Source: OCS155 cluster bacterium AG-422-J23
GTDB lineage: Bacteria > Actinomycetota > Acidimicrobiia > Actinomarinales > Actinomarinaceae
Assembly (NCBI GenBank): GCA_003213625.1
Contig: QCMT01000002.1
Span: 22,152 to 86,151, forward strand
Reading direction: 5' to 3'
DNA length: 64,000 bases
Below are positions 17,931 through 63,825 of this stretch, in pieces. The stretch's first letter is position 1, and every line of letters begins with the position of its first letter. The notes under the pieces were generated by a model that was given only the letters and a program-made list of their open reading frames with translations, did no database searches and had not been told where the DNA came from. The position numbers and the translations under genes are program-made.

Positions 17931-17954
17931 ATCAGAATTATAAAGTATTTTTTA

Positions 17955-25454: not shown

Positions 25455-25455
25455 G

Positions 25456-27378: not shown

Positions 27379-27455
27379 GGATCTCCTAAGATACGCTTCT
27401 TTTTTATATTAAGTACAGCCCCTTGCTGAACTCTTATTTTAGTAGAAATACGTTA

Positions 27456-28858: not shown

Positions 28859-28975
28859 ATTTAATCTTTTATAAATTTAATAGTAATAAGAACGTCTGAC
28901 ATGTATAAATAGAAAAAAAACCAATTTACAAAAAGGATTTTAGAGGAGCAAAAAGACAACAAAACCGACAAAGAA

Positions 28976-30280: not shown

Positions 30281-30444
30281 TCTGAACAATCTAATAAAAC
30301 CCCTTCGGAAATCATAGAGTGGTAAAAACATATTAATTTTTAGAAAACAAACACACACCAACTAAAAACCCAACGATTGTTGAGTTTATTAGAGGAAATA
30401 ATAAGAAAAATAATAAGTGAATTTCAGATTATAAAACCTAGTTA

Positions 30445-46658: not shown

Positions 46659-47900
46659 TTATCCAACACTAAGCACAAATAAAGCCTGTAGCGTCAGTGC
46701 AACAGTTATGAATAAAAATATGTATTGTGTTTTATCACTTTGTTGATGACCAAAAAGCTTAACTGCTAGGTCGTGAGCTAACACAACGCTTAACATATGA
46801 CCTAGAAGGGTAACAGCAACTTGAATTCCCCAGATAACTAAAGGCTCTATAAAATAATTTATCGTTGGTTCTTCTACATTTAATATATTCATACCAATTC
46901 CTATCGGATCATTAAATCTGTAAAAAAATGTTTGGGATTCGAAAAGTAGAAGTGTCAAATAGTGAGTTACATGGTATGCAAAAGCGATTGGTAGCATCGT
47001 ATGTCCAAAGAGATTTGAAACATGGTTAAGTTTAAGATCAGAGCCACCTACTTTGATTGCAAAGAAGCATGCAAAACGATAAAAAAGAATCGTTCCTAAG
47101 TTCATGATCAAAAACATCATCGTTGAAAACCCCATATCATCTGTTCTTGATCCGAACTGGTTATACCAGAAAGTAGTCTCTCTTAAACCATCGTAAGTTA
47201 CGGTACCTATCATTAAAAGTACAAAATATTCGATACCTCTTAGTTTCGCTAAATTTCCAATATTATCTAAAAGAGATCGAAAATAAGGCTTGCTGTTAAA
47301 TAGTTTTAGTTTGCTATATAAATAATGAAGTAAAAGTAATGGATCAACTTCGATTAATGACTTCTTTAAAAAATATCTCAATAAATTTACACAAACAAAG
47401 AGTGTAATTAGGACGACTGCAATATTTAAAGGATTTCCAGGTCTCCTCCAAACAAGCTCAAACCAGGTAAGTCCAATAAATAATATGCAAGCAAAATAAA
47501 CAGATTCTGGCTTATCCGATTTTAAAGAAAATAAATTCAAAGGGTTAAATTTTGAATATATGTCACCAAACAATAAGCCAAGTACTGGAACACCAATCCA
47601 AAGAAAAACCCAAAGTATCAAAGGGGCGACGGATGTTTTTGATGATTCATTTCCAAATATTCCAGGTGCAATAAGTAAAAATAAAATGATTATTCCAAAC
47701 AATTTTCCAATAAAATTTTGCTTGTCATTAAAAACCTCTTGTCTTGGTGTAATAATGGATTCTTTCCATGAGACTTTTAAATAAACAAATGTAATCAATA
47801 CAACTAAGGCTGAAGAATTGAGGACAATATCGAAAGGTATTGGGAGATCTCCAACATTTACAACACCATGATTTAATGATGCTGAGTTTTTTATTATCAT
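46659..47900 (-). CDS. polytopic membrane protein, unknown function
   Basis: 413 aa, about 10-12 TM helices; no motif recognised. Confidence 0.6.
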   Translation of the reverse strand: MIIKNSASLNHGVVNVGDLPIPFDIVLNSSALVVLITFVYLKVSWKESIITPRQEVFNDKQNFIGKLFGIIILFLLIAPGIFGNESSKTSVAPLILWVFLWIGVPVLGLLFGDIYSKFNPLNLFSLKSDKPESVYFACILFIGLTWFELVWRRPGNPLNIAVVLITLFVCVNLLRYFLKKSLIEVDPLLLLHYLYSKLKLFNSKPYFRSLLDNIGNLAKLRGIEYFVLLMIGTVTYDGLRETTFWYNQFGSRTDDMGFSTMMFLIMNLGTILFYRFACFFAIKVGGSDLKLNHVSNLFGHTMLPIAFAYHVTHYLTLLLFESQTFFYRFNDPIGIGMNILNVEEPTINYFIEPLVIWGIQVAVTLLGHMLSVVLAHDLAVKLFGHQQSDKTQYIFLFITVALTLQALFVLSVG

Positions 47901-49731: not shown

Positions 49732-50523
49732 ATGAACAATGTAAAAAAAGATAGTTTAAATGACACAGCGATCATTGTTTCTGATGGTTGCTGTGTTCAA
49801 CTAGGTAATGCACAAGCTTTAGATGATGTAACTTTTTCCATTGAAAGAGGAAAAAAAGTAGCTGTTGTCGGACCAAATGGTGGAGGAAAATCTACCTTGT
49901 TTAATGCTATTGCTGGGCTTGTTCCTATTGTTGATGGTTCTCTTAAAATCAAAGGAATGAATCCTGAAGATGCCAAAGGGTCAATTAGCTATGTTCCACA
50001 AAAAGATTTAATAAATAGAAACTTTCCTCTTTCTGTAAAGCAAGTGGTAGAAATGGGTTTAATCAATAAAGATACTTTGAATTTATTTTCAAGAAAAAAA
50101 ATTAATAAAAAAATTAAAGAAGCCTTAGAAAATGTAGGACTTGTAGAGAAAATTAATGAAAATATAAATAATTTATCTGGAGGTCAGTTCCAAAGAGTAT
50201 TAATTGCCAGGGGACTAGCTCAAGATGCTGATATTTTATTACTTGATGAAGCTTTTAGTGCCGTTGATGTAGGCGCTCAGGAAGATATCATGAATCTAAT
50301 AAGTGATATAAATCTAGATGGTAAAACTATTCTGATTGCAACACATGATATCAATAATCTTGAGGAAAAATTCGATGAAGTGTTGTGTCTAAATAGACAT
50401 TGCTGCGCTTATGGAGATCCCTCAGAAGTCTTAACCAGTGAAGTCATTGAAGAAATGTATGGTTCCCACAACGAAATGTTTAAATTTCATACACCAGAAA
50501 GTCATACAAAAAATAATGATTGA
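49732..50523 (+). CDS. znuC: zinc ABC transporter ATP-binding protein
   Basis: GPNGGGKST, LSGGQFQRVLIA, LLLDEAF. Confidence 0.88.
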   Translation: MNNVKKDSLNDTAIIVSDGCCVQLGNAQALDDVTFSIERGKKVAVVGPNGGGKSTLFNAIAGLVPIVDGSLKIKGMNPEDAKGSISYVPQKDLINRNFPLSVKQVVEMGLINKDTLNLFSRKKINKKIKEALENVGLVEKINENINNLSGGQFQRVLIARGLAQDADILLLDEAFSAVDVGAQEDIMNLISDINLDGKTILIATHDINNLEEKFDEVLCLNRHCCAYGDPSEVLTSEVIEEMYGSHNEMFKFHTPESHTKNND

Positions 50524-51337
50524 AATTTTAATCGAGCCATTTCAGTACGAATTTATGACCCGATCAATTGTGACCGCTATTGGGTCTGGGGTTATGCTTT
50601 CTTTATTAGGACCTTTTGCAATAAATAGAAATATGGGCTTTATGGCCGATGCAATGGCTCATGCAACTCTACCAATTATTGCAATTGGAGTGTTCTTAGG
50701 TTTTAGTATTTCCGAATTAGGTGTCCCTGCTTCAATATTGATTGCATTTTTTCTTGGATACATAATTAAAAATTCAAATATTGGTGAAGATACCTCAATA
50801 GGAATAATTTTTTCATCTTTTTTTGCTTTAGGATTTGTTTTGATATCAATTCTTGATGTCACTATTAACCTAGAAGACTTACTTTTTGGACAAATACTGG
50901 CAGTTAGCAACTTCGATGTTGTGATAGTCGTTTCAATGTCTATTGGAGTAGTCAGTCTTGTAGTTATCTTTTTTAAACAGTTATTGTTTTATTCTTTTGA
51001 CCCTATTGGAGCAGAAGTTAAAGGTTTAAATACAAATTTTTTAAATTATTTATTTCTTGTAATTTTATCCGTATCGATTGTGGCTTCCCTTCAGACAGTT
51101 GGAATAATTTTGGTACTCAGCATGCTGCTTATTCCAGCAGCAGCATCAAAACTAATAACGAATACATTTGTTACCTCAATATTTGCGAGTATATTTTTTG
51201 GGGTTACTTCATCTGTCACAGGTCTATATTTTTCTTACTTTTTCAACTTGCCGTCAGGGCCAACAATGTCATTAGTCGCAACAGGCATTTTTATATTTTG
51301 TTTTTTTGTTAGTAAATTATCAAAAGTTAAAATTTAG
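50516..51337 (+). CDS. znuB: zinc ABC transporter permease
   Basis: Start moved to ATG 50516 (MIEILIEPFQYEFM), overlapping the znuC stop; ABC-3 type polytopic protein. Confidence 0.85.
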   Translation: MIEILIEPFQYEFMTRSIVTAIGSGVMLSLLGPFAINRNMGFMADAMAHATLPIIAIGVFLGFSISELGVPASILIAFFLGYIIKNSNIGEDTSIGIIFSSFFALGFVLISILDVTINLEDLLFGQILAVSNFDVVIVVSMSIGVVSLVVIFFKQLLFYSFDPIGAEVKGLNTNFLNYLFLVILSVSIVASLQTVGIILVLSMLLIPAAASKLITNTFVTSIFASIFFGVTSSVTGLYFSYFFNLPSGPTMSLVATGIFIFCFFVSKLSKVKI

Positions 51338-53382: not shown

Positions 53383-54111
53383 GTGGAAAAAATAATAGAA
53401 GCAAAAAACCTTACAAAGGTTTATGGAGAAGATGGAACATCAGTTACAGCATTAAACAATGTAAATCTTGATTTTTATGAAAATAAATTTACAGCAATTA
53501 TGGGTCAGTCTGGATCAGGCAAATCAACTCTTCTCCACTGTCTTGCAGGATTGGATAAAGTTACTTCAGGATCAATTTTTGTAAAAGGTGTTGACCTAGG
53601 AAGCCTTAACGACAAAGAATTAACAAAAATAAGAAGAGACTCTTTTGGGTTTGTATTCCAAGCTTTCAATTTAATACCAACATTAACTGCAGAGGAAAAC
53701 ATCACACTACCCTCTTCAATTGCAGGAAGAAAACCTGATGAAGAGTGGATAAACCAAATTGTTAATACCGTAGATATTGGAGATAGATTAAATCATCGAC
53801 CAAATGAACTTTCAGGAGGTCAGCAACAAAGGGTCGCTGCTGCACGAGCAATGGCAACAAAGCCAGAAGTAATTTTTGCTGATGAACCATCAGGAAATTT
53901 AGACTCAAAATCAAGTAAGGAACTATTAACTTTTATGAAATCTGTTGTCAAAGAGTTAAATCAGACCATAGTTATGGTGACACACGATCCTTTCGCTGCA
54001 TCATTTGCTGAGAGGGTAATAATGCTAAAAGATGGAGAAGTAGCAAGTGATATGGAAGACCCATCTCAAGAAGAGATTATCTCAATGGTCACATCCTTAA
54101 GCGATATTTAA
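53383..54111 (+). CDS. ABC transporter ATP-binding protein (MacB/FtsE-like)
   Basis: GTG start; GQSGSGKST, LSGGQQQRVAAARA, IFADEPSGNLD. Confidence 0.9.
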   Translation: MEKIIEAKNLTKVYGEDGTSVTALNNVNLDFYENKFTAIMGQSGSGKSTLLHCLAGLDKVTSGSIFVKGVDLGSLNDKELTKIRRDSFGFVFQAFNLIPTLTAEENITLPSSIAGRKPDEEWINQIVNTVDIGDRLNHRPNELSGGQQQRVAAARAMATKPEVIFADEPSGNLDSKSSKELLTFMKSVVKELNQTIVMVTHDPFAASFAERVIMLKDGEVASDMEDPSQEEIISMVTSLSDI

Positions 54112-56762
54112 TGTTTGGATTTACAAAAAGACCCCTTCTATTAATAGCTTGGAAAAATCTTAAAACTTATCCAGTAAGAATATTTCTGACAACCTCATCA
54201 ATTATTCTTGGAGTTTCAGTCATAATTGCTGCGAATATTTTCTCTGAAAGCAACAAAAACGCATTCGATAATTTATTTTCTGGCGTATTTGAAGGAATAG
54301 ATCTAGTTGTTCAGCCTATCCAGGAAGATTTTGCTCAAGGCTTTGGAGACGATGGTGGTCAGGGACCAATATCATTTGAGTTTAGAAAAATTTCTGATAA
54401 AAAGATAAATGAAATAAAGAGCATAGATGGTGTAAAAGATGCATGGGGTGATGTTATTGGGTTTGCTCAATTCATAAAATTTGGACCAAGACAAGATTGT
54501 CATGCTTTTAACCCAGAATGTGAAAGAGAAACTATCTTAATTCAAAATGGTTTTGCCCCTACTTTTGGAGCTGCGTGGGATACATCACCTTACGCCTCAC
54601 AGTGGGAAATAATTGATGGACAGCCTCCAACAAATAACAAAGAGGTCGTTATGGACTCAACAACGGCTGAAGGAAATGGGTTTAGTGTTGGAGACAGAGT
54701 CACTGTACTTGCTGGGGCTATACCAGCTACTTTCACGATCGTTGGAATAGCAGAATTTGCAAATACGGGGTCACCTGGTGGAGCATCTTTTGCTCTTTTT
54801 GATTTTAGAACTGCACAAGTTCTTTTAGATTCTATAGGTGAAGTAGATTTTATAAATGTTGTCGTTGATGAAAATGCTGACATAAATGAAGTTCGAAATG
54901 CTATTTCAAATATCGACAGTCAAGGTTTAGAAGTTATTGATGCACAGGAAGCAGCAGCTGAACAAGCCGACTCTATAAAACAAGGCCTTGATTTTTTTAA
55001 TACTATATTGAACGTATTTGCAGGTATAGCTATCTTTGTAGGTGCTTTTATTATTCAAAATACGTTTAGAATCCTTTTACTACAAAGAACAAAAGAGCTA
55101 TCTTTGTTGAGAGCTTTAGGAACTTCTAAGAGACAGATTTATAGACTTGTTGTCTCAGAATCATTATATATGGCAGTAATTGGCTCAGGACTTGGAGTCG
55201 CACTTGGCATTGGTTTATCAGTAGTTGTTAAAGAGGGATTAAAGTATTTTGATTTTGGTCTACCTGAAGGTCCTTTAGTTTTAACTCCTAGTGCTGCAGT
55301 CACAGGAATTATTATTGGTGTAGTTGTCACTATATTTTCATCGTTGTTGCCGGCCAGAAAAGCATCTCAAGTGAGCCCACTTGAAGCTATTAGAGACAGT
55401 CAGTCAACTCCAAAAAGAAAGTCACTATTTATACGATTGATTGTTGGATCATCAGTATCATTGTCAGGTTTAGGTATTCTTTTCGGTGTTTTGTACTCTT
55501 TTTTTAGAGTTCCATCTTTATCTGTCCTTCAACAAGTGGGCTTAGGTGCAAGCATAATCTTTATTGGTATTTCAGTAATTACACCCTCAATCACAAAACC
55601 TTTTGTTACAATCTTCGATAAAATTTACAAAACTATTTTTGGAATTCTTGGTAAATTGGCAACGGAAAACTCTAAAAGAACTCCACGAAGGACTGCCTCC
55701 ACTGCTTCAGCATTAATGATCGGACTAACCTTAATATCTCTTGCTAACGTTTTAACTACATCCTTTAAAGCACAAGCTGAGAAAGTTGTAAAAGAAGTTG
55801 TTCTTGCAGATTATCAGGTTAGTGCAGCTCAAATTTTTGCATCTCCAGGTATTCCAACAGGTCTATCTCAAGAATTAATTGAACTTGAAGAGGTTACGGA
55901 ACTATCAAGAACACGAGCTACCGTTGTTGGTTACAACAATAGACCATTGATACTGGGAGCTGTTGATAAAGAGGTTTTTGATCTAATCAAGACCGTTGAC
56001 ATTGCCGGTTCAAGAGAGGATTTTTACGAACAAGACGCTATTGGGGTTTTAAAATTTAAAGCTGATAATGATAATATTTCACTAAACGACAGAGTAACTT
56101 TGACGATACCTGAAGTAGGAAAAAAAGAATTTATTGTTAAATATATTTTTGACTGGACCACACAGCCCCCAGCTGAATTTTTTCTTCTTTTAGATAATCA
56201 CGAATTTTTCTCAAACGAATCTTTAGATACAGAATTATATTTCAACGTTATAAACAAGGATGAAGCTACTAAAAATAAACTTGATGATATTGTAGATCAT
56301 TACCCAGGAGTAACATTACGTGATCAAGATGCTCTGATTGAAGAGGCAAATAGCCAGATCCAATTGTTGTTGAATGTTATTTATGGATTTTTATCTATAT
56401 CTATTTTTGTGGCTTTATTTGGAATTACGAACACTCTTTCATTATCAGTTTATGAAAGAACTAGGGAGATTGGTTTAATGAGAGCAATAGGAACGTTAAG
56501 AAAACAAATTAGAAATATGGTATTTATAGAATCTTCAATCATTTCAGTATTTGGTGCAATACTTGGAACGGGTCTTGGTATATTTTTTGCATGGAGTCTA
56601 ATTCAAGCACTTGAGGATCAAGGTTTTACAGAATTTGTTGTTTCTACCCAGCAGACAATTTTATGGATCGGAATTGCAATACTTTCGGGCGTAATTGCTG
56701 CAATCATTCCTGCAATTAGAGCTTCAAGACAAAATATACTTGAAGCTATTTCTTACGAATAA
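54111..56762 (+). CDS. ABC transporter permease with two FtsX/MacB modules (about 10 TM)
   Basis: 883 aa; two large extracytoplasmic domains, each followed by an FtsX-like 3-TM bundle (LRALGTSKRQI, MRAIGTLRKQI). Confidence 0.85.
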   Translation: MFGFTKRPLLLIAWKNLKTYPVRIFLTTSSIILGVSVIIAANIFSESNKNAFDNLFSGVFEGIDLVVQPIQEDFAQGFGDDGGQGPISFEFRKISDKKINEIKSIDGVKDAWGDVIGFAQFIKFGPRQDCHAFNPECERETILIQNGFAPTFGAAWDTSPYASQWEIIDGQPPTNNKEVVMDSTTAEGNGFSVGDRVTVLAGAIPATFTIVGIAEFANTGSPGGASFALFDFRTAQVLLDSIGEVDFINVVVDENADINEVRNAISNIDSQGLEVIDAQEAAAEQADSIKQGLDFFNTILNVFAGIAIFVGAFIIQNTFRILLLQRTKELSLLRALGTSKRQIYRLVVSESLYMAVIGSGLGVALGIGLSVVVKEGLKYFDFGLPEGPLVLTPSAAVTGIIIGVVVTIFSSLLPARKASQVSPLEAIRDSQSTPKRKSLFIRLIVGSSVSLSGLGILFGVLYSFFRVPSLSVLQQVGLGASIIFIGISVITPSITKPFVTIFDKIYKTIFGILGKLATENSKRTPRRTASTASALMIGLTLISLANVLTTSFKAQAEKVVKEVVLADYQVSAAQIFASPGIPTGLSQELIELEEVTELSRTRATVVGYNNRPLILGAVDKEVFDLIKTVDIAGSREDFYEQDAIGVLKFKADNDNISLNDRVTLTIPEVGKKEFIVKYIFDWTTQPPAEFFLLLDNHEFFSNESLDTELYFNVINKDEATKNKLDDIVDHYPGVTLRDQDALIEEANSQIQLLLNVIYGFLSISIFVALFGITNTLSLSVYERTREIGLMRAIGTLRKQIRNMVFIESSIISVFGAILGTGLGIFFAWSLIQALEDQGFTEFVVSTQQTILWIGIAILSGVIAAIIPAIRASRQNILEAISYE

Positions 56763-56765
56763 AAC

Positions 56766-59700
56766 TCAAGGATTTCCAGGAGGAGGTGCTTCTCCACCGC
56801 CACCGCCACCACCAGGAGGTTCAGGAGGAGGTGCTTCTCCACCACCACCAGGAGGTTCAGGAGGAGGTGCTTCTCCACCACCACCAGGAGGAACATCGCC
56901 TTCACCACCAGGAGGAACATCGCCTTCACCACCAGGAGGTGCTTCACCACCAGGAGGAGGATTGTAGCCTTCTCCTTCAGGAGGTGGTCCTTGACCTTCT
57001 TGTCCAGGCTGACATCCTGGTGCAGCTGGATTATTTGCACAATCTTCTTGATCTTGCTGTCCACTAGGAGGTGTATTTCCACCAGGAGGATTATCTCCAC
57101 CACCAGGAGGAGGATTGTAGCCTTCTCCTTCAGGAGGTGGTCCTTGACCTTCTTGTCCACCACTTTGAGGGCAACCAGGTGCATAAGGGTTATCGTCACA
57201 ATCTTGATCTTGTATTATTCCATCTTGAGGTGGAGGAGGTGGAACATTAGAGCAAGAAGGGTCATCAGGATTTTCATCACAATAATTTCCTGTAAAATCT
57301 GTATATGTATCTGTTTGTTCCTTAAATTCTCCAGCTTTTTGTTCGTCACCCCAGAACCCAATATTTGCTGGTGCAACTCCAGGTGGAACAGGCTCACCAC
57401 TTACTGGTCCAAAGATGTCAGTCTGGGGAGATCCTTGACCTCCAACTGGCTGAACAAAACATAATGGGTCTTGTGGATTGTTCTCACATAGTTCACCAGT
57501 ATCTTCTGGGTTGAAAGATTCATATTCAGCAATTCCATCTTGTCCTCCCGAAAACAAATTAGAATTTTCAGGACTGAAACCAACAGAACAAGCTGGATCA
57601 TTCTGGTTTTCTGGAGCTGTGCAATCAATAACTAAATAATCATTGTGATTTCCATATCTTTGTGATGCTAAATCATCAGCACCATTTATTGAATCATAGA
57701 AAACTCCTTGTTTTTCCAAATCAATATACGAGTCATCACTAAACAAATTTCCTAAAAATTCACCAGTTTCTAATGGTTTAGGACCGAAATAGTCTCTTGA
57801 ACACTCTGGATGATTAGGATCGTCAGAGCAAAAATTAGGAAGCTGACCAAGTTCTTCAACAGTTGGCGCTGCATAAGTTGCTAATAAATTACCAGTTAGA
57901 GGTCCTTGTAATCCACCCCCCTGTCCAAAATTTGGATCACATTCAGGTGCATCCGGATTTTCATTACAATAACTTGGTTGAACGTATTCACCGTCTTCAA
58001 AAATATCTGATGGTCTAAAATCTTCACTACACTCCGGAGCACTTTCATTTTCTTGACAGAACTCAGGTGGTGGACCTTCTAATTGTTGAGGGCCCCCATA
58101 TATATCAAACATATCATTTCTGTCTAACGCAATAGCTGTAGCCTGCCCAACATGTTCATGAAAAAAGTCACCTTCACCTGTACACATCGGATCATCTGGG
58201 TAGGATGTACAGTCAACCGGTTTCCATTCGTCTCCAAGTACTTCATCATCATAAACATGAAAAAAGGTGTATACAGCTACAGAGTTTCCTCCAGTACACA
58301 TTGGGTCATCTGTATTCTCTTCGCAAAAAGTTGAATTATCATCATTGTTGAAAAATACATTCCCAACATTTTCATTATTCTGACATGATTCTGGATTAGC
58401 CTCGCAAAAAGATCCGCCCTCTTTAAATTCATCTCCAACATACCCAGGTCCGTTTGCACATTCAGGTAACCATGGAGACTCTTCACAATAATTTGGTTTT
58501 AAGTCATTTTCTGTGAATGTATAGGCAAACCCCATGTCATTTACCATATCTTCAACAAAGTGGTTTCCTGCAAATGCCTGGGCAAGAAAATCTGGATCAG
58601 GACCTCCACCCAAACAATCTTCATCTTCAGGATTATCGTAACAATAAGTTCCCTCAGCAAATCCTTCAGTTTCTGCATTAACAAACATGTTCGCAGCTGC
58701 AAGTGCCATTGCTGAGGCAACATCTCCTGTTTCCGCAAGCTCATTCACAGCATTTGTATCAGCGGATATAAACTGCATCATTCCGTGTTGAGCTCTAAAC
58801 CCACCATGTTCCTCATGATTAAACCCAAGATCTTTTAATTCCACATTCTCATGAACTTTTGCAGCATCTCCAAAATTATCTGCAAGTGTGAGAGGTGGAA
58901 GTTCTTGCCATTGACCATCATCTCCTGGGGCGGTATTCCAAGCCTCATCTATAAACTCTTTTACCTCTGCTTCTGGAACAGCAACCTCAGCAACAACCTG
59001 GGCTAAATTTTCAACAGATTGAGTTATTTCTTCTGGAGCGCCAGCAGCTGTAAGAAGAGTTGATGTAAGATCTAATCTTTCAGTATCATTTTCAGTAAAA
59101 ACAGCATTTGGAGCAGTGTCAGGAGTTAGAGTTTCAGACCCATCAGCTAATCCCTCTTGAGTTTCTGCTTTACAAGTGTAACTACAATCACCCTCCATGT
59201 TTGATACAAAATCATCAACAATAAGAGCTACTGTTCCTGGTTCTTCCTCTGTCCAGCCAGAACCTCCAGTTGTTGCACTTCCAAGCTCTGTTCCAGCAGT
59301 TTGTGAAATTGCTACAAGTACGGGTTGACCATTCTCATCTGGAAGGAGTTCGCTGAAAACAGCATCATCAGTTTCTTCACCACCTTCTAGGACGGTACTC
59401 TTTGCTGATAATGTTGTAACATCATATTCAAAAACACCTTCCGTTCCATGAACTGAAAGCTCTGCAGTAGGGGTGACAATTTTAGCTAGAGAAGCCTGGA
59501 GACCTTCACTTTTTATATCATATGCAATACTTCCTGAGATTACATCAACTGTTAAAACTCTTGCTTTTGCTTCCTCATCATAGTCAAAACTTCTTATGTT
59601 AATAACGGAGTTACCTCCCATTAAAAGTGATGAACCATCTTCAAAGGTCATTTGAGCAGTACCATTGTCAGCTGTTCTAATCTTCACACCCATATCTAGT

Positions 59701-59969
59701 GGAACAATCTCACTAATCACTTCCCAGTCACTTGAAGCATCTGTGAGAATACCTGTTGCTCCAATAAGAGGTTTTAAGAGAATTGGAGGAACAACCAAAT
59801 CTGTTTCGTTATAGATTTCCCCAGAAGATGTTTCTACATCCGCAACTGTAGTTGTTGTAGTTTCTTCGGTAGCATCAGTACTTTCATTTGATGTATCATC
59901 TGAACCACCACAGGCAGAAAGAATTAGAAAAAGAATAGTTAAAATAACAAAACTTTTTTTATGTTTCAT
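56766..59969 (-). CDS. giant secreted lipoprotein: FecR-like domain, 13 Cys mini-loop repeats, Pro/Gly-rich repetitive C-terminal tail
   Basis: Start moved to MKHKKSFVILTILFLILSACGG. FecR-like GVKIRTADNGTAQMTFEDGSSLLMGGNSV...IVTPTAELSVHGTEG. 13 x C-[DESAT]-x-N/x-P-x-x-P-x-C. Tail (GQEGQGPPPEGEGYNPPPGG)x2 and (PPGGGGEAPPPE)n. Confidence 0.8.
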   Translation of the reverse strand: MKHKKSFVILTILFLILSACGGSDDTSNESTDATEETTTTTVADVETSSGEIYNETDLVVPPILLKPLIGATGILTDASSDWEVISEIVPLDMGVKIRTADNGTAQMTFEDGSSLLMGGNSVINIRSFDYDEEAKARVLTVDVISGSIAYDIKSEGLQASLAKIVTPTAELSVHGTEGVFEYDVTTLSAKSTVLEGGEETDDAVFSELLPDENGQPVLVAISQTAGTELGSATTGGSGWTEEEPGTVALIVDDFVSNMEGDCSYTCKAETQEGLADGSETLTPDTAPNAVFTENDTERLDLTSTLLTAAGAPEEITQSVENLAQVVAEVAVPEAEVKEFIDEAWNTAPGDDGQWQELPPLTLADNFGDAAKVHENVELKDLGFNHEEHGGFRAQHGMMQFISADTNAVNELAETGDVASAMALAAANMFVNAETEGFAEGTYCYDNPEDEDCLGGGPDPDFLAQAFAGNHFVEDMVNDMGFAYTFTENDLKPNYCEESPWLPECANGPGYVGDEFKEGGSFCEANPESCQNNENVGNVFFNNDDNSTFCEENTDDPMCTGGNSVAVYTFFHVYDDEVLGDEWKPVDCTSYPDDPMCTGEGDFFHEHVGQATAIALDRNDMFDIYGGPQQLEGPPPEFCQENESAPECSEDFRPSDIFEDGEYVQPSYCNENPDAPECDPNFGQGGGLQGPLTGNLLATYAAPTVEELGQLPNFCSDDPNHPECSRDYFGPKPLETGEFLGNLFSDDSYIDLEKQGVFYDSINGADDLASQRYGNHNDYLVIDCTAPENQNDPACSVGFSPENSNLFSGGQDGIAEYESFNPEDTGELCENNPQDPLCFVQPVGGQGSPQTDIFGPVSGEPVPPGVAPANIGFWGDEQKAGEFKEQTDTYTDFTGNYCDENPDDPSCSNVPPPPPQDGIIQDQDCDDNPYAPGCPQSGGQEGQGPPPEGEGYNPPPGGGDNPPGGNTPPSGQQDQEDCANNPAAPGCQPGQEGQGPPPEGEGYNPPPGGEAPPGGEGDVPPGGEGDVPPGGGGEAPPPEPPGGGGEAPPPEPPGGGGGGGEAPPPGNP
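56777..57159. repeat. GC-rich coding tandem/dispersed repeats (36-bp x2-3, 24-bp x2, 57-bp x2)
   Basis: 36-mers at 56815-56850 and 56851-56886. 24-mers at 56887-56910 and 56911-56934. 57-mers at 56950-57006 and 57103-57159. Confidence 0.9.
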
Positions 59970-60078
59970 GTCTATATTCAATATCCTAGACAAAATTTCT
60001 TTCATGTTCTATTTTGATTAATTTAATGTTTGCCACTCTCTTTAGTAAAAAAATAAATATCTTTTACAATAAACACAT

Positions 60079-61371
60079 ATGAAAAACGCTTATATTACTG
60101 AGTTATTGTCAAAATTAGTGGAAATTCCATCTATAAGCTCTCTTGATGAAAACCATAAAGATGTATTAGATTCAGCAAATTATATTGCTGAATTATTCAA
60201 TGAGATTGGTTTAAAATCAAAGGTCACTTCAAGTAAAAATAGTAAACCAGCCGTACTTGGTCAGACTGAAATAGACCCATCTAAAAAAACCGTTCTTCTC
60301 TATGCACATCATGATGTTCAACCAGTTGGCGATATAAATAAATGGGATACAGATCCCTTTAAACCAGAGATTATTGATGGAAGACTTTTTGCAAGAGGCT
60401 CAGGAGATAACAAAGCAGGAGTTGTAACTCATTACGAAGTTGTTAAAAAATTGATAGATGACCTACCTGTAAATATAAAAATCTTTATCGAAGGTGAAGA
60501 GGAAATTGGTTCTCCTTTCATGGCAGAGTTTATAGAAGAAAACAAAAGTGACTTAGAAGCAGATGTCATTGTTATTGCTGATTCTGGAAATATTAAGTCA
60601 GGTGTCCCAACTATTACAACATCCCTGAGAGGTTTGGTTGATGGAATTATTGTTGTTGATCAGCAAATGAATCCTGTTCACTCAGGTCTTGGAGGTGGTG
60701 TTGTACCTGATGCATTTATGGTATTAAGTAAAATTATTTCATCATTTCATAATGAAAAAGGGGAACTATTAATTGATGGATTAACTTCGACTGACCAGGA
60801 CGTGTATGAATTATCTGAAGAGTTTGTACAAAACTCCCTTTCTTCTAATGGTGTAAATTTATTTGAAATGGATAGCTATTCAAAACGATTATGGCTCGAA
60901 CCAGCATTGAGTATTTTAGCTATCGATGCCCCACCCGTAGAAGAATCAGTTAATCTACTTATTCCAAAAGCTAGAGCAAAAGTAAGTTTGAGATTACCTC
61001 CCACAGAAGATCCAGATCATGCAATGGATATGCTCCATAAACATATAAAAGAGAACACGCCTTGGAATGCAAATGTTGAATTTATTCCTGAAGCAAAAGG
61101 AAAAGGTGTACTAGTAGATCCGCAAAAAGAGTTTTCAACACAATTGATCAAATCTTTTGATAAATACTGGGATAATGACGTTGCATTTATGGGTGTAGGT
61201 GGTTCCATACCTTTCGCAAACATATTTACAGAACAGTTTCCAAATGCTGAGATTGTTTTGGTTGGAGCAGGAGATGAAGAAGGTAATGCTCATGCACCAA
61301 ATGAAAGTGTAAATATTGACGATATTCAAAGACTTATTGATAGTCTTACAGACGCACTTTCAAATTATTAA
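60079..61371 (+). CDS. M20 family metallopeptidase (dipeptidase/ArgE-DapE-like)
   Basis: LLYAHHDVQPVGD, RGSGDNKAG, EGEEEIGS, and a C-terminal HAPNE motif. Confidence 0.85.
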   Translation: MKNAYITELLSKLVEIPSISSLDENHKDVLDSANYIAELFNEIGLKSKVTSSKNSKPAVLGQTEIDPSKKTVLLYAHHDVQPVGDINKWDTDPFKPEIIDGRLFARGSGDNKAGVVTHYEVVKKLIDDLPVNIKIFIEGEEEIGSPFMAEFIEENKSDLEADVIVIADSGNIKSGVPTITTSLRGLVDGIIVVDQQMNPVHSGLGGGVVPDAFMVLSKIISSFHNEKGELLIDGLTSTDQDVYELSEEFVQNSLSSNGVNLFEMDSYSKRLWLEPALSILAIDAPPVEESVNLLIPKARAKVSLRLPPTEDPDHAMDMLHKHIKENTPWNANVEFIPEAKGKGVLVDPQKEFSTQLIKSFDKYWDNDVAFMGVGGSIPFANIFTEQFPNAEIVLVGAGDEEGNAHAPNESVNIDDIQRLIDSLTDALSNY

Positions 61372-61502: not shown

Positions 61503-62045
61503 ATGAAAAAATTCTTTATTCAAGATGATGTATCAACAGCAAAAACATCTTCAGTAATATTCTTTATATCAGGAGTTGTAGCTTTTATACAGCCAGAGAT
61601 ACTAGTAATCCGAACTTTAGCAAGTTTCTTTGGAGCTGTAGCAATAGCACAGATTGTACTACTTGGCCCACAAATCATGGAAGATAGCATTCCTGAATCT
61701 TGGAACACTGCAAACGCAATGATCGCCGCTGTTATTTTGCTCGATAATTTAATCGACACTGGTTATGTAGCTCGAGAAATAGAAAACCCGATTGCACGAG
61801 AACCAATTTTTATATTTCTTAATTTTGCCTTTCTTGGGTATGCTTTCACGACCGAAGGAAAAATGTCTAATGTTTATAGATATATGATTATGTTTGGTGC
61901 ATCTTCTTTTATTCTTGTTATAGGTGCGGAGTTCTTTTTTGGAGTTGAGATACCCGAATCTCTTGACATAATATTTTTGCCAGTGTTCTTTACGTGGCTT
62001 ATAGGAATTACAGCAGGAACTTACACAGCTTTTAGTAATAAATAA
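61503..62045 (+). CDS. polytopic membrane protein, tandem paralog 1
   Basis: MKKFF...; IPESWNTA and EIPESL motifs shared with the next two genes. Confidence 0.7.
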   Translation: MKKFFIQDDVSTAKTSSVIFFISGVVAFIQPEILVIRTLASFFGAVAIAQIVLLGPQIMEDSIPESWNTANAMIAAVILLDNLIDTGYVAREIENPIAREPIFIFLNFAFLGYAFTTEGKMSNVYRYMIMFGASSFILVIGAEFFFGVEIPESLDIIFLPVFFTWLIGITAGTYTAFSNK

Positions 62046-62063
62046 AAAAAGAAAGGAAATAAA

Positions 62064-62636
62064 GTGAAAGCATTTTTTACCCAACCGATAGGGCAACTAG
62101 CAAGACAAAACTGTATTGGTTTTATTGGTTGCAATTTATATTTAATTGGTAATGGTTTCGGACTATATGAGGGGCCAGAAGGGATTAATAGAATATTCAA
62201 TTTCGCCTGGGCATTTACACTATTAGGAATAATTCTTGGAGGTTATTATTTAATAGAAGATCAAGTACCAGAATACTGGAGAATGGCAACAGGCATATTA
62301 GGTGGTGTGATAATTCTTGGGACATTAATTGAAATATCATTTCCAGAATTTAGGGAAAATGGTTTTGCTGGGATGTATTTTTTATGGGCATTTAACTCAT
62401 TAACATTTTCTTTAACAATAAGAGGTACAGGAGTCTTTAGACCGGTCTATGAATACTTGAGCATTTTTGCTTTTACATTCATAATGATAGGTTCAGGAGC
62501 ACAGCTGTTTTTTGACTACACACCACCAGAGTCAATTCAACCATTATTTGGAATTGGCTGGATTGCCATGATTATTGGATTAGGTGTTGGCAGTTATGTT
62601 GCTTGGGGTGACAAAATGTCATCAAGCACGGAATAA
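62064..62636 (+). CDS. polytopic membrane protein, tandem paralog 2
   Basis: GTG start after aaagaaaggaaataaa; MKAFF...; VPEYWRMA, TPPESI. Confidence 0.7.
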   Translation: MKAFFTQPIGQLARQNCIGFIGCNLYLIGNGFGLYEGPEGINRIFNFAWAFTLLGIILGGYYLIEDQVPEYWRMATGILGGVIILGTLIEISFPEFRENGFAGMYFLWAFNSLTFSLTIRGTGVFRPVYEYLSIFAFTFIMIGSGAQLFFDYTPPESIQPLFGIGWIAMIIGLGVGSYVAWGDKMSSSTE

Positions 62637-62653
62637 AAGAAAGGAAATAAATT

Positions 62654-63193
62654 ATGAAATCATTTTTTGCATCAACAGATAAAGAAAATGCACAACAGGC
62701 TGGTTACTTATTCCTAATTACTAACCTTTTAGGATTTGTAACTACGGGATTAATGGGAATGGAAGCTCCTCCGGGAGAGTTATTGGTAAGCTTTTTATGG
62801 GGTTTAAGCCTTGCTGGTATTTTTCTGACCATCAAACCACTATTAGGAGATAATGTGCCTGAAAATTGGAGAGAAGGCACAACTTTTCTAGCAGCAGCAA
62901 TTTTTGCAGGAAACTGTTTAACACTAGGAAGTGATGGAAATGAATTTGGTCCGTTTTTCTTTTTTATTTGTTTAAACATGGTGGCTTTATATGCAGTTTC
63001 AGAAGGTGTTATTGGTAATATATGGAGATACAACCTTTTAGTCGGAGGGCTTATGGGAGTTATTTTTGCTGGAGCTGGGACATTTTTTGGATATGAACCG
63101 CCAGAAGCTTTAATGCCCCTTCAATTAGTCCTTTGGATAACATTTATCCTAGGTTTAGGTGTAGGGCCACTGTTGGCCTGGAGAGATAGGTAA
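62654..63193 (+). CDS. polytopic membrane protein, tandem paralog 3
   Basis: ATG after aaagaaaggaaataaa; MKSFF...; VPENWREG, EPPEAL. Confidence 0.7.
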   Translation: MKSFFASTDKENAQQAGYLFLITNLLGFVTTGLMGMEAPPGELLVSFLWGLSLAGIFLTIKPLLGDNVPENWREGTTFLAAAIFAGNCLTLGSDGNEFGPFFFFICLNMVALYAVSEGVIGNIWRYNLLVGGLMGVIFAGAGTFFGYEPPEALMPLQLVLWITFILGLGVGPLLAWRDR

Positions 63194-63210
63194 GTAAAGA
63201 AAGGAAAAAA

Positions 63211-63825
63211 ATGAATACATTATCAGATAGTGAAAAAAGAATAGGAAGCCTAATGGCTCGTATATCTGCAGTATGCATCTTTCTATCTTTTGGAGTACAA
63301 GTTGCTTTAGGAGATCCGGGAAGTGCTGGTTACGATTCAGCAACAGGAGGAATAGTTGCAACTTTAAATTATGCACAAGCATTTTCTTTTTTGTTTGTAC
63401 TTGCATTCTCGCTTAAGCTTTTCAATGCTGAAGAGAATGCGTACTTTAGAGTTGTTACGCAAGCATTTTTTGTAGTAATAGCTATAAACATGGTAAATAG
63501 CTTTAATGCAACTGGATACTTTAACAACGAAGGAACAATCTTTACACCAGATCAAATACAGATACTTCAGAATGTAAATGCATGGGGTTGGAACTTACTA
63601 GCTGGAATTGTAGTGCTTTGTGTACTTTCAGTTAATGAAGATCAGCTCCCAACTTATGGAGTTTATGCTGGCTGGGGTGGAGCAATTTTAATATTGGCCT
63701 TTTCTATCGGGAGCATATTTGGACTTCTACCAGAAGGAGCTTTTATTTTAATAGCAGTCTTAGGAGGAGTTGTTTTGTTTCCAGCATTTATATTTTCATT
63801 CTCATCAGCATTTTCTAAAGCATGA
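63211..63825 (+). CDS. polytopic membrane protein, divergent fourth member or unrelated neighbour
   Basis: Same aaagaaaggaaaaaa RBS spacer and similar size and TM layout, but the motifs are not clearly shared. Confidence 0.6.
   Translation: MNTLSDSEKRIGSLMARISAVCIFLSFGVQVALGDPGSAGYDSATGGIVATLNYAQAFSFLFVLAFSLKLFNAEENAYFRVVTQAFFVVIAINMVNSFNATGYFNNEGTIFTPDQIQILQNVNAWGWNLLAGIVVLCVLSVNEDQLPTYGVYAGWGGAILILAFSIGSIFGLLPEGAFILIAVLGGVVLFPAFIFSFSSAFSKA

What the first reader, a model, noticed from the sequence alone, without database searches (positions are those of the whole stretch)
56766..59969. Giant lipoprotein with a FecR-like domain, 13 C-x-x-N-P-x-x-P-x-C mini-loops and a Pro/Gly tail
The 1067-aa lipoprotein (lipobox LILSACGG) has an N-terminal FecR-like beta domain. 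A long acidic region follows, with 13 spaced copies of a 9-12-residue two-Cys motif. Examples are YCYDNPEDEDC, YCEESPWLPEC, FCEENTDDPMC, DCTSYPDDPMC, FCQENESAPEC, YCNENPDAPEC, FCSDDPNHPEC, LCENNPQDPLC, YCDENPDDPSC, DCDDNPYAPGC and DCANNPAAPGC. An aromatic residue usually precedes the first Cys. I do not recognise this repeat as a named family. The protein ends in a low-complexity PPGG/EAPPPE tail with no sortase or other anchoring signal visible. It converges, with a 3-nt gap, on a second MacB-like ABC system (53383-56762). So both MacB-type pumps in this window sit beside Cys-patterned secreted lipoproteins.
Basis: partly seen in the sequence, partly recalled or inferred. Interest (0 to 1): 0.7.

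Follow-up and report, generated by a model that had tools for sequence, protein, structure and literature searches.

The report
Acidic Actinomarina surface lipoprotein with CP12-like loops
This is a real, intact gene for a very acidic, lipid-anchored cell-surface protein found only in the tiny marine bacterium Candidatus Actinomarina; it carries 13 short two-cysteine loops resembling the disulfide loop of the plant and cyanobacterial regulator CP12, and strains swap its outer half by recombination.

Summary
ORF 56766-59969(-) encodes a 1067-aa protein with these parts:
- a Sec-type lipoprotein signal (LILSAC, Cys20);
- a FecR domain above Pfam's cutoff;
- a helical region with an extra C-x3-C pair;
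- 13 two-Cys loops, 11 of them exactly C-x8-C (shuffles give a mean of 0.58);
- a Pro/Gly tail built from perfect tandem repeats.

In 23 homologues the loop cysteines are kept or lost in pairs, which points to one disulfide per loop.

Three findings are new.
1. The loop is not without precedent. A profile of it searched against all PDB sequences returns CP12 as the top three hits (E = 7e-5 to 4e-3). Three of the four weaker hits are the CP12-derived tail of chloroplast GAPDH-B. The protein fails the other CP12 criteria, so this is a shared motif, not family membership.
2. The family is confined to Ca. Actinomarinales. An exhaustive profile search of 1.84 billion proteins found only this family.
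3. The gene is a mosaic. Against close strains, the flanks and the 5' 1.9 kb are 90-100% identical, while the 3' 1.5 kb is 58-68% identical.

The proposed link to the MacB pump is not supported: the genes converge, and five relatives lack the pump next door. My best reading is an exposed polyanionic surface coat protein. Its function remains inferred.

The parts
56766..59969 (-). Whole CDS of the 1067-aa acidic lipoprotein (stop codon 56766-56768). An alternative upstream ATG at 60005 is unlikely to be used.
59910..59969 (-). Sec-type lipoprotein signal peptide and lipobox (MKHKKSFVILTILFLILSAC, Cys20)
   Evidence: Read from the sequence. S18, C20 and G21 are invariant. It is the most hydrophobic segment in the protein.
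59805..59909 (-). Thr/Ser/Asp/Glu-rich linker (aa 21-55), poorly conserved
59235..59804 (-). Conserved beta-rich region containing the FecR domain (aa 56-245; Pfam match at 96-196). dN/dS is 0.03-0.07.
   Evidence: A weak Foldseek match to FecR-type anti-sigma C-terminal domains (PupR 6OVK, BDI_1681 4M0H) came from a low-confidence model.
58650..59234 (-). Conserved region predicted to be helical (aa 246-440), with no family match
59172..59186 (-). Invariant C-x3-C pair CSYTC (aa 262-266)
58614..58643 (-). Loop 1, CYDNPEDEDC (aa 443-452)
   Evidence: both Cys present in 23/23
58458..58487 (-). Loop 2, CEESPWLPEC (aa 495-504)
   Evidence: 23/23
58383..58406 (-). Loop 3, short form CEANPESC (aa 522-529, C-x6-C)
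   Evidence: 22 have both Cys, 1 has neither
58296..58325 (-). Loop 4, CEENTDDPMC (aa 549-558)
   Evidence: 23/23
58182..58211 (-). Loop 5, CTSYPDDPMC (aa 587-596)
   Evidence: 23/23
58029..58058 (-). Loop 6, CQENESAPEC (aa 638-647)
   Evidence: 23/23
57939..57968 (-). Loop 7, CNENPDAPEC (aa 668-677). Its segment gives a sub-threshold Pfam CP12 hit, E = 0.056.
57801..57830 (-). Loop 8, CSDDPNHPEC (aa 714-723), followed by SRDY
57588..57623 (-). Loop 9, long form CTAPENQNDPAC (aa 783-794, C-x10-C)
   Evidence: 22 have both Cys, 1 has neither
57459..57488 (-). Loop 10, CENNPQDPLC (aa 828-837)
   Evidence: 23/23
57252..57281 (-). Loop 11, CDENPDDPSC (aa 897-906), preceded by a predicted helix and the invariant W873. 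This is the segment that aligns with CP12 in PDB entry 6GFO.
57171..57200 (-). Loop 12, CDDNPYAPGC (aa 924-933)
   Evidence: 19 have both Cys, 2 have neither, 2 are alignment-ambiguous
57012..57041 (-). Loop 13, CANNPAAPGC (aa 977-986), inside the Pro/Gly tail
   Evidence: 19 have both Cys, 4 have neither
56769..57089 (-). Pro/Gly/Glu-rich tail (aa 961-1067) with no anchor motif. It contains perfect tandem DNA repeats: 36 bp x2.4 at 56806-56891 and 24 bp x2.5 at 56879-56939.
56600..58100 (.). Divergent allelic cassette. Identity to the close strains L007 and L025 is 58-68% per 300-nt bin (28-87% in 60-nt windows), while the rest of the 8-kb region is 82-100% identical. It covers aa ~620-1067 and spills about 150 nt into the 3' end of the MacB-like permease gene.
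53383..56762 (+). Neighbour, probably not part of the system: MacB/FtsX-type ABC ATPase (53383-54111) and an 883-aa double-FtsX permease (54111-56762), convergent with the lipoprotein gene
60079..61371 (+). Neighbour: M20 peptidase gene, divergent from the lipoprotein gene. It is kept next to it in 18 of the 27 related loci fetched (all from one clade).

Best explanation
The gene encodes a cell-surface protein specific to Candidatus Actinomarinales. It is tethered to the cytoplasmic membrane by an N-terminal lipid on Cys20.

A strongly conserved base lies next to the membrane. It consists of a FecR-type beta domain and a helical region, and it presumably contacts a conserved component of the cell's own envelope.

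Beyond the base runs a long, extremely acidic stretch rich in aromatic residues and poor in aliphatic ones. At irregular intervals it is pinned by at least 13 short loops with the consensus P-x-[YF]-C-x-[DE]-N-P-D-x-P-E-C. Each loop is most likely closed by its own disulfide into a one- to two-turn helical cap, as seen in crystal structures of the C-terminal loop of CP12. The protein ends in a Pro/Gly tail of variable repeat number.

In the oxidising, Ca/Mg-rich seawater outside the cell, the disulfides would be permanently formed and the polyanion loaded with cations. This would give a semi-ordered, protease-resistant surface coat or spacer.

The outer half (aa ~620 to the end) is exchanged between strains by homologous recombination and evolves several-fold faster than neighbouring genes. 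That is the signature of a part exposed to phages, grazers or other outside pressure.

Shown: anatomy, paired-Cys conservation, CP12-type motif match, lineage restriction, mosaic evolution.
Inferred: disulfide formation, helical-cap geometry, cation loading, coat or phage-contact role.
For: Anatomy.

More than chance: 11 C-x8-C pairs against a shuffle mean of 0.58.

Paired cysteines: in 13 of 14 Cys pairs, all 23 homologues have both Cys or neither. Homologues with more loops (10 to 32 short-gap pairs) always add cysteines two at a time.

Unit of repetition: only the 12-17-residue loop recurs, and the spacers between loops are unrelated (hhalign of all 78 unit pairs).

CP12 match: the loop profile against PDB gives CP12 chains 3b1j_C (E = 7.4e-5), 3zdf_C (6.2e-4) and 6gfo_E (4.2e-3). 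Three of the four remaining weak hits are the GAPDH-B C-terminal extension. The full-length profile's only PDB hit is also CP12. Pfam CP12 is the sole hit for 3 of 6 loop segments.

Structural precedent: the CP12 C-terminal domain is a two-turn helical region stabilised by a disulfide, and it orders only when oxidised (PMC6800369; PMC3906501).

Local order: in the low-confidence AF2 model, short helices and local pLDDT peaks coincide with the loops.

Lineage restriction: an exhaustive HMMER profile search of 1.84e9 representatives gave 36 hits, all in this family. All 23 GTDB loci are Ca. Actinomarina, Actinomarinales or OCS155.

Faster evolution: dN/dS is 0.14-0.28, against 0.00-0.12 for the three neighbouring genes.

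Mosaicism: against L007 and L025, dS is 0.12-0.48 for aa 1-600 and 1.2-1.7 for aa 601-960. Nucleotide identity drops from 90-98% to 58-68% over the 3' 1.5 kb only. Some pairs have 97-98% identical N-terminal parts and 58-59% identical C-terminal parts. Other pairs show the reverse, with C-terminal parts 89-95% and N-terminal parts 79-85% identical.

Tail: perfect tandem repeats. Eleven or twelve of the 23 SAG/MAG contigs break inside it.
Against: - There is no experimental or expression evidence that the protein is made or surface-exposed.
- Both AlphaFold runs were of low confidence (mean pLDDT 38 and 44). No loop geometry or Cys-Cys distance could be verified. The low confidence cannot be read as disorder, because even the FecR domain scored poorly.
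- The CP12 similarity covers only about 12 residues and is below Pfam's gathering score. It could be convergence on a helix N-cap (Asn-Pro followed by acidic residues) plus a disulfide.
- Overall dN/dS stays below 1, so relaxed constraint combined with ordinary recombination could explain part of the pattern without diversifying selection.
- No cation-binding motif such as DxDxDG is present.
- No phage homologue or phage link was found.
Confidence: 0.5

Rival explanations
1. Partner or cargo of the adjacent MacB/FtsX-type ABC system. The pump would use mechanotransmission to export, release or activate the lipoprotein, as LolCDE does for lipoproteins or FtsEX does for its extracytoplasmic effectors.
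For: The two genes are separated by only 3 nt in the window. The arrangement M20 - lipoprotein - ABC is kept in 10 related loci. The permease has MacB_PCD and two FtsX domains, and the ATPase is LolD/MacB-like.
Against: The genes converge, so they are separate transcripts. Five relatives at 57-67% identity (L002, L003, L004, L015, L023) have other genes downstream: rpiB-fumC-suf in L002-L004, and none of this window's genes in L015 and L023. Within the clade that keeps the arrangement, gene order around the locus is conserved on both sides anyway. The lipoprotein has no coiled-coil, peptidase or amidase-activator domain of the kind FtsEX partners carry. The pump genes evolve 3-10 times more slowly and are not part of the swapped cassette, apart from their last ~150 nt.
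Confidence: 0.12
2. A device for capturing or storing metals or cationic nutrients. The polyanion, plus His-rich patches in some alleles, would concentrate Fe, Cu, Zn, Ca or organic cations at the surface of a very small, nutrient-limited cell.
For: Net charge is -149 to -234 in all homologues, with almost no basic residues after aa 450. His/Asp/Glu-rich patches occur in the clade of P0033, P0034 and P0036 and in fragment P0070. CP12 itself binds Cu2+ and Ni2+ with micromolar affinity (PMC3906501). A metal-type ABC importer lies 6 kb away (49732-51337).
Against: The His patches are not conserved across the family. The cysteines behave as structural pairs, not as free thiol ligands. No known metal-binding motif or family was detected. 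The name 'FecR' reflects homology to a protein-binding anti-sigma domain, not an iron-binding site. Nutrient capture does not explain why the distal half is swapped between strains.
Confidence: 0.15
3. An adhesin. Like the Leptospira FecR-domain lipoproteins Lsa33 and LipL45, it would attach the cell to particles, phytoplankton or polymers.
For: The best NCBIfam hits are Lsa33 (E = 5.4e-5) and LipL45 (7.2e-4), over the FecR region only. The protein has a long repeat-bearing extracellular region and variable alleles.
Against: The scores are far below the family cutoffs (22.5 bits against 420, and 18.7 against 350) and cover only the shared FecR domain. The lineage is described as free-living plankton of the photic zone (PMC7771536). 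A strongly anionic protein is a poor general adhesin for surfaces that are mostly anionic.
Confidence: 0.08
4. An extracellular redox or ROS sensor that uses CP12-like conditional disorder. The loops would switch between reduced (disordered) and oxidised (ordered) states and pass the change to the FecR-like base.
For: The motif matches the redox-switched CP12 loop. The organism lives in sunlit surface water, where ROS are generated (bioRxiv 10.64898/2026.04.03.716425). FecR domains act in trans-envelope signalling in other bacteria.
Against: The protein has no transmembrane or cytoplasmic output segment. Neither adjacent gene is a sigma or anti-sigma factor (M20 peptidase upstream, ABC pair downstream). 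The extracytoplasmic side of an aerobic marine cell is constantly oxidising, so there is nothing to switch. Thirteen or more redundant switches, with variable copy number, do not fit a sensor.
Confidence: 0.05

Closest known systems
C-terminal disulfide loop of CP12 (Pfam PF02672; PDB 3B1J, 3ZDF, 6GFO), and its copy in the C-terminal extension of chloroplast GAPDH-B
   Same: The spacing is the same (C-x8-C) and the residues are nearly the same: [YF]-C-x-[DE]-N-P-D-A/D-x-E-C. These are the only significant PDB matches to the loop profile. In CP12 this element is a short helical turn locked by one disulfide inside an otherwise disordered, acidic polypeptide (PMC6800369).
   Different: CP12 is an ~80-aa cytosolic or stromal regulator of oxygenic phototrophs with a single such loop at its C-terminus. 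It also has an AWD_VEEL core motif and a tail that enters the GAPDH active site. Here there are 13 or more internal copies in a 1067-aa exported lipoprotein of a heterotrophic actinobacterium. There is no AWD_VEEL motif, and scores are below Pfam's cutoff. Homology and convergence cannot be told apart from 12 residues.
FecR-type domains (PF04773), found in the periplasmic part of FecR/PupR anti-sigma factors and in the Leptospira lipoproteins LipL45 and Lsa33
   Same: The Pfam FecR match is above the gathering score in all 23 homologues. As in LipL45 and Lsa33, the domain sits behind a lipoprotein signal rather than an anti-sigma/TM module. The weak fold matches are to PupR and BDI_1681.
   Different: There is no N-terminal anti-sigma domain and no transmembrane helix. 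No TonB-dependent transducer is expected, because this lineage probably has no outer membrane (PMC7771536). The 800-aa acidic loop-bearing extension has no counterpart in those proteins.
Thrombospondin type-3 'calcium wire' repeats (comparison from general knowledge, not tested here)
   Same: Both are Asp/Asn-rich extracellular polypeptides with little regular secondary structure, held in shape by short-range disulfides and bound cations.
   Different: There is no DxDxDGxxDxxD calcium-binding motif, no sequence match, and the Cys spacing differs.
Variable surface proteins with a conserved anchor-proximal base and a recombining distal part (a general class; here the comparison is only by evolutionary pattern)
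   Same: The base is conserved (dN/dS 0.03-0.07). The distal cassette is exchanged between strains, and the tail is a variable-number tandem repeat.
   Different: No silent cassette copies or invertase/recombinase machinery were seen nearby. Variation appears to arise by ordinary homologous recombination among co-occurring strains.

Membership tests
Bacterial lipoprotein (Sec/SPII-type signal) | A positively charged n-region, a hydrophobic h-region and a lipobox [LVI][ASTVI][GAS]C at the cleavage site | tested here: met
   The sequence is MKHKK-SFVILTILFLI-LSAC. S18, C20 and G21 are invariant and A19 is at least 90% conserved in 23 homologues. It is the most hydrophobic stretch in the protein.
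Bacterial lipoprotein (Sec/SPII-type signal) | Actual lipid modification by Lgt/LspA | not testable with these tools
   This needs biochemistry. The presence of lgt and lspA in the genome was not examined.
FecR domain family (PF04773) | Match to the Pfam model above its gathering score | tested here: met
   34.2 bits against a cutoff of 24, E = 3.6e-8, aa 96-196. All 23 homologues match, best E = 2.8e-9.
FecR/PupR-type anti-sigma factor (cell-surface signalling) | An N-terminal cytoplasmic anti-sigma domain and a single TM helix preceding the FecR domain | tested here: not met
   Only a cleavable lipoprotein signal precedes the domain. There is no other TM segment and no other Pfam domain.
FecR/PupR-type anti-sigma factor (cell-surface signalling) | An adjacent ECF sigma factor gene and a TonB-dependent transducer gene | tested here: not met
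   The immediate neighbours are an M20 peptidase and a MacB-type ABC pair. In the other context they are rpiB, fumC and suf genes.
CP12 (PF02672) | A C-terminal-type Cys pair, C-x8-C, with the [YF]CxxNPxxxEC signature | tested here: met
   Eleven C-x8-C loops are present. The loop profile hits CP12 chains at E = 7.4e-5 to 4.2e-3 as the top three of 177,635 PDB sequences.
CP12 (PF02672) | Match to the Pfam model above its gathering score (22.7 bits) | tested here: not met
   The best score is 14.7 bits (E = 0.056) for isolated loop segments. Only 2 of 23 full-length homologues reach E <= 10.
CP12 (PF02672) | The core AWD_VEEL motif | tested here: not met
   A regular-expression search found no AWD..EE in the seven sequences checked (the window protein and six diverse homologues). 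Only an invariant W873 in FWGDEQK, 24 residues before loop 11, is loosely similar.
CP12 (PF02672) | A small (~80 aa) intracellular protein of oxygenic phototrophs that binds GAPDH and PRK | tested here: not met
   This is a 1067-aa exported lipoprotein in Ca. Actinomarina, a heterotrophic actinobacterium. GAPDH binding is not testable here.
Extracytoplasmic partner of a MacB/FtsX-type ABC system | Same operon, or conserved gene linkage with the ABC genes | tested here: not met
   The orientation is convergent. The linkage is present in the window and 10 loci and absent in 5.
Extracytoplasmic partner of a MacB/FtsX-type ABC system | Physical interaction with the permease's extracytoplasmic domain | not testable with these tools
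   This needs interaction assays or a confident complex prediction.
Sortase-anchored (LPXTG) wall protein | A C-terminal LPXTG motif, a hydrophobic segment and a positively charged tail | tested here: not met
   There is no LP.[TSA]G motif. The C-terminus is ...GGGGGGGEAPPPGNP, with no hydrophobic segment.

The most novel reading that the evidence does not exclude
This protein is the main exposed protein coat of one of the smallest and most abundant free-living marine bacteria. It would be built on a previously unseen principle: an extracellular polyanion kept semi-ordered by an array of CP12-type disulfide-stapled helical caps. Its distal half would be a swappable cassette kept diverse in the population by phage or grazer pressure. 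That would make it a candidate primary phage receptor or shield for Actinomarina, and a second hot spot of diversity, inside a gene, separate from the known tRNA-bounded hypervariable region.
Probability: 0.2. Interest if true: 0.75.

Novelty: new variant of a known kind. Interest (0 to 1): 0.55.

Why it matters
Candidatus Actinomarina is among the most abundant bacteria of the sunlit ocean. It is uncultured, and its cell envelope is essentially unknown (PMC7771536).

A 3.2-kb gene in a ~1.1-Mb streamlined genome, found in all 23 Actinomarinales genomes recovered here and at least 55% identical among them, is likely to matter to the cell. Neither of the two genome papers I checked discusses it.

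If it is the exposed coat protein, three things follow:
- It offers a handle for envelope biology, for antibody or probe design, and for phage-host studies in this lineage.
- Its recombining cassette would be a gene-internal counterpart to the known flexible island.
- The recurrence of the CP12 loop outside photosynthesis, in many extracellular copies, would show that this 12-residue disulfide cap is a portable structural module and not a GAPDH-specific device.

Tried and rejected
- **Structure prediction.** The full-length run (A1, 23 sequences) gave mean pLDDT 38. The run on aa 52-442 (A5, 12 sequences) gave 44. Neither is usable. A Foldseek search with the second model only weakly recalled FecR-type anti-sigma domains, with probability 0.90-0.98 but TM-scores below 0.3.
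- **Sequence searches for a named family for the loop region.** The single sequence against PDB gave nothing. Pfam on the 530-aa loop region gave nothing. NCBIfam gave only signal-peptide and FecR-region hits. PHROGs gave only signal-peptide hits. PADLOC gave nothing for the lipoprotein.
- **Distant relatives.** The word-based search found only the family plus the odd P0040. The exhaustive profile search found only the family and its fragments.
- **Phage link.** There was no match in INPHARED phages by tblastn and none in IMG/VR.
- **P0040.** No contig is on record, and there is no relative in IMG/VR or the JGI metagenomes. It was left unexplained and may be a chimeric assembly.
- **Larger repeat unit.** The idea that the loops belong to a larger duplicated domain was rejected. 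Profile-profile alignments between the 13 units cover only 10-38 columns (mostly 12-20), centred on the loop.
- **Artefact or pseudogene.** Rejected. The ORF is intact in at least 23 genomes and under purifying selection.
- **Literature.** Neither Actinomarinales genome paper mentions this protein. No paper combines a FecR domain, a lipoprotein and Actinobacteria.

Full report
**1. What is in the sequence**

The minus-strand ORF 56766..60005 is intact. The first ATG gives 1079 aa.

The N-terminus, MKHKKSFVILTILFLILSAC, is a Sec-type lipoprotein signal. S18, C20 and G21 are invariant in 23 homologues. It is the most hydrophobic stretch of the protein; the only other above KD 1.6 is the Pro/Lys-containing aa 58-76.

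Pfam finds one domain: FecR (PF04773) at aa 96-196, E = 3.6e-8, 34.2 bits against a gathering score of 24. All 23 aligned homologues match it. NCBIfam adds only far-sub-threshold hits of the same region to the Leptospira FecR-domain lipoproteins Lsa33 and LipL45.

There are 29 cysteines:
- the lipobox Cys;
- 13 two-Cys loops. Eleven are exactly C-x8-C, one is C-x6-C (522-529) and one is C-x10-C (783-794).

Shuffling the mature sequence 20,000 times gives a mean of 0.58 adjacent C-x8-C pairs and a maximum of 5, against 11 observed.

Net charge is about -173. After aa 450 there are 8-12 acidic, 0-2 basic, 5-8 aromatic and only 4-8 aliphatic residues per 50.

The last 107 residues are 31% Pro and 31% Gly. 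They are encoded by perfect tandem DNA repeats (36 bp x2.4 and 24 bp x2.5). There is no LPXTG motif and no C-terminal hydrophobic segment.

**2. Where the organism and the family sit**

The window has about 32% G+C and carries dnaA-dnaN-gyrB-gyrA-DUF3566. It is the origin region of a low-GC actinobacterial chromosome.

The protein has 39 family hits at 55-97% identity, all from marine metagenomes, SAGs or MAGs, and none named. A scan of one genome per GTDB species found 23 loci. All are labelled Candidatus Actinomarina, Actinomarinales, OCS155 or unclassified marine Acidimicrobiia/Actinomycetota.

I built a HMMER profile of aa 231-960 from seven diverse members and searched it against 1.84 billion representative proteins. 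It found 36 proteins. One is the single full-length cluster representative, and the rest are short fragments of the same family.

Everything beyond the FecR domain is therefore confined to this order. The two genome papers on the group do not mention the protein.

**3. The loops**

Across 23 homologues, in 13 of the 14 Cys pairs every sequence has both cysteines or neither. The two exceptions lie in an alignment-ambiguous part of the tail. Homologues with longer C-termini carry up to 32 short-gap pairs. Gain and loss in pairs is what one disulfide per loop predicts.

The consensus from 234 unique loop instances is P-x-[YF]-C-[DAE]-[ED]-N-P-D-[DA]-P-E-C-x-G-G.

Profile-profile comparison of the 13 units (spacer plus loop) aligns only 10-38 columns (mostly 12-20), centred on the loop. 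The repeated element is the loop itself. The spacers are unique and individually conserved, for example VYTFFHVYDxxVLGD and ALDRxDMFDIYGGP.

**4. The loop has a known look-alike**

The profile of the whole family has a single PDB hit, CP12 (6gfo_E, E = 0.46). It aligns ...FWGDEEKAEEF...YCDENPDDPSC with CP12's ...YCDDNPDAAEC.

To test this lead I built a 19-column profile from 84 unique loops and searched all 177,635 distinct PDB sequences:
- The three best hits are CP12 chains: 3b1j_C (E = 7.4e-5), 3zdf_C (6.2e-4) and 6gfo_E (4.2e-3).
- Three of the four sub-threshold hits are the C-terminal extension of chloroplast GAPDH-B, which is known to derive from CP12 (PMC3906501).

Isolated loop segments scanned against Pfam give CP12 (PF02672, model positions 48-66 of 70) as the sole hit for three of six segments. 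The scores are 10.9-14.7 bits, below the 22.7-bit gathering score. Only 2 of 23 full-length proteins reach E <= 10.

The CP12 core motif AWD_VEEL is absent. The protein is also 13 times larger, exported, and from a non-phototroph.

I conclude that the loop is a CP12-type C-x8-C cap and that the protein is not a CP12 family member. Twelve residues cannot distinguish ancient homology, horizontal capture of a motif, and convergence on an Asn-Pro helix N-cap locked by an i/i+9 disulfide.

The structural precedent is useful in any case. In crystal and cryo-EM structures, the CP12 C-terminal domain is a two-turn helical region stabilised by its disulfide, and it orders only when oxidised (PMC6800369; PMC3906501).

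**5. Structure prediction**

AlphaFold2 gave mean pLDDT 38 on the full alignment and 44 on aa 52-442. I draw no fold conclusions from either model.

Two weak observations fit the rest. In the full-length model, 12 of 13 loops overlap short helices, and the few segments with pLDDT of 50 or more in the C-terminal half coincide with loops. The second model's best Foldseek hits are FecR-type anti-sigma C-terminal domains (PupR 6OVK; BDI_1681 4M0H/4M0N), with probability 0.90-0.98 but TM-scores below 0.3.

Low confidence here cannot be read as disorder. The alignments are shallow, and even the FecR domain scored poorly.

**6. Genomic context and the pump hypothesis**

The gene is divergent from an M20 peptidase gene. 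It converges, with a 3-nt gap, on a MacB/FtsX-type ABC pair: a LolD/MacB-like ATPase and an 883-aa permease with MacB_PCD and two FtsX domains.

The arrangement M20 - lipoprotein - ABC recurs in 10 related loci. Five relatives at 57-67% identity have different neighbours. L002-L004 have rpiB-fumC-suf downstream. L015 and L023 have none of this window's genes nearby.

Convergent transcription plus loss of linkage in the deeper clade argue against a dedicated functional coupling. The linkage that exists is explained by general gene-order conservation around the locus within one clade.

The small secreted proteins flanking the other MacB pump in the window (13299-13928 and 17334-19035) have a different motif, C-[LM]-R-[ED]-x-G-[YI]-x-x-x-D-P. 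They are unrelated to this protein.

**7. Mode of evolution**

The lipoprotein is far more diverged than its neighbours. Against L007, the M20 peptidase is 97% identical, the permease 98% and the ATPase 100%, but the lipoprotein only 81%.

Nei-Gojobori estimates give dN/dS of 0.14-0.28 for the lipoprotein and 0.00-0.12 for the neighbours. Within the protein, the FecR region scores 0.03-0.07 and the tail 0.24-0.82.

The gene is also a mosaic:
- Against L007 and L025, dS is 0.12-0.48 for aa 1-600 and 1.2-1.7 for aa 601-960.
- In 300-nt bins against L007, nucleotide identity is 90-98% through the flanks and the first 1.9 kb of the gene. It falls to 58-68% over the last ~1.5 kb and returns to 96-98% in the ABC genes.
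- At 60-nt resolution, the 5' breakpoint lies at about 58120-58060 (aa ~617-637). The 3' breakpoint lies about 150 nt inside the end of the permease gene.

Among 253 pairs of homologues, some have N-terminal parts 97-98% identical with C-terminal parts 58-59% identical. Others show the reverse: C-terminal parts 89-95% and N-terminal parts 79-85% identical.

This shows repeated exchange of a distal cassette by homologous recombination. Within the cassette, the loop cysteines and the loop consensus are retained while the spacers vary.

Eleven or twelve of the 23 SAG/MAG contigs end inside the 3' tail, as expected for a repeat-bearing, polymorphic stretch.

The locus lies about 27-30 kb from dnaA. 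That is far from the tRNA-bounded hypervariable region described at 85-90% of the chromosome (bioRxiv 10.64898/2026.04.03.716425).

**8. Interpretation**

Shown:
- a lipobox-bearing, FecR-domain, hyper-acidic protein restricted to Actinomarinales;
- 13 or more conserved Cys-pair loops of CP12 C-terminal type;
- a conserved membrane-proximal base and a recombining distal half with a VNTR tail.

Inferred:
- each loop is an internally disulfide-bonded helical cap;
- the polyanion is cation-loaded in seawater;
- the protein is surface-exposed and acts as a coat or spacer, with its outer part under diversifying pressure from phages or grazers.

I put about 0.5 on this combined reading. The anatomical parts deserve much higher confidence, and the specific biological role lower.

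Rivals: pump partner (0.12), metal or cation capture (0.15), adhesin (0.08), redox sensor (0.05). Their evidence is set out in the rival section. No phage homologue or defence-system match was found.

**9. Novelty and score**

The FecR domain and the lipoprotein signal are ordinary. The rest is not described anywhere I could search: an extracellular array of CP12-type loops set in unique acidic, aromatic-rich spacers, restricted to one abundant marine lineage, with an intragenic recombining cassette.

I classify it as a new variant of a known kind, namely variable, repeat-bearing surface lipoproteins. Interest is 0.55. It is a solid, unusual and testable feature of an ecologically important uncultured organism, but there is no functional evidence and no reliable structural model.

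Noticed in passing
window 13299-13928(-), 17334-17930(-), 17955-18563(-), 18532-19035(-): Four small paralogous secreted proteins or lipoproteins flank the first MacB-type pump (13817-15680) and its 528-aa adaptor-like protein (15677-17263). Each carries 2-3 copies of a C-[LMV]-[RN]-[ED]-x-G-[YI]-x-x-x-[DE]-P motif (for example AQCMREEGIDFPDP). None has a Pfam hit. The family is unrelated to the FecR lipoprotein.
   Followed up: partly
P0040 (metaclust TARA_004 protein, 615 aa), compared with window protein aa 205-242 and 460-475: An otherwise unrelated Asn/Lys-rich protein contains an almost identical ~37-aa patch (FSELLP...GGSGWTEE), followed directly by EFLAQQLAGNHFIEDF. This skips the helical region and the first loop. 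No contig, viral relative or metagenome relative was found. It may be a chimeric assembly or a real shuffled protein.
   Followed up: partly
L006, L008, L011-L014, L016, L020-L022, L024, L026 (ends of GTDB contigs): Eleven or twelve of 23 single-cell or MAG contigs end within the 3' Pro/Gly tail of this gene. The tail is a systematic assembly breakpoint in Actinomarina genomes.
   Followed up: partly
window 56560-56740, the 3' end of the MacB-like permease gene: The divergent recombined segment extends about 150 nt into the end of the convergent permease gene (73-87% identity to L007 and L025 there, against 93-100% just beyond at 56501-56560).
   Followed up: partly
window 61503-63825(+): Four tandem paralogous genes encode ~180-204-aa multi-pass membrane proteins. 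The one scanned against Pfam (61503-62045) had no hit. The first has copies at 25-32% identity in the same position in related loci.
   Followed up: no
window 22369-30361(-): The chromosome origin gene set is present: dnaA, dnaN, gyrB, gyrA and DUF3566. This places the lipoprotein about 27-30 kb from dnaA, away from the hypervariable region published at 85-90% of the chromosome.
   Followed up: partly
window 44215-46614(-): A 799-aa protein with BNR/Asp-box and Sortilin-Vps10 repeats, next to a 413-aa ORF (46659-47900) with no Pfam match.
   Followed up: no
homologues P0033, P0034, P0036 and fragment P0070: One clade of alleles replaces parts of the distal cassette with His/Asp/Glu/Gly-rich runs (for example DHGEGDHGEGDHG and HHEGDEDHGEDD). 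These hint at metal binding in some alleles only.
   Followed up: no
window aa 58-76 of the lipoprotein (about 59742-59798): The invariant segment LVVPPILLKPLIGATGILT is moderately hydrophobic (Kyte-Doolittle 1.67 over 19 aa) and sits just before the FecR domain. Its two Pro and one Lys make it unlikely to be a TM helix, but it could be a membrane- or partner-contact element.
   Followed up: no
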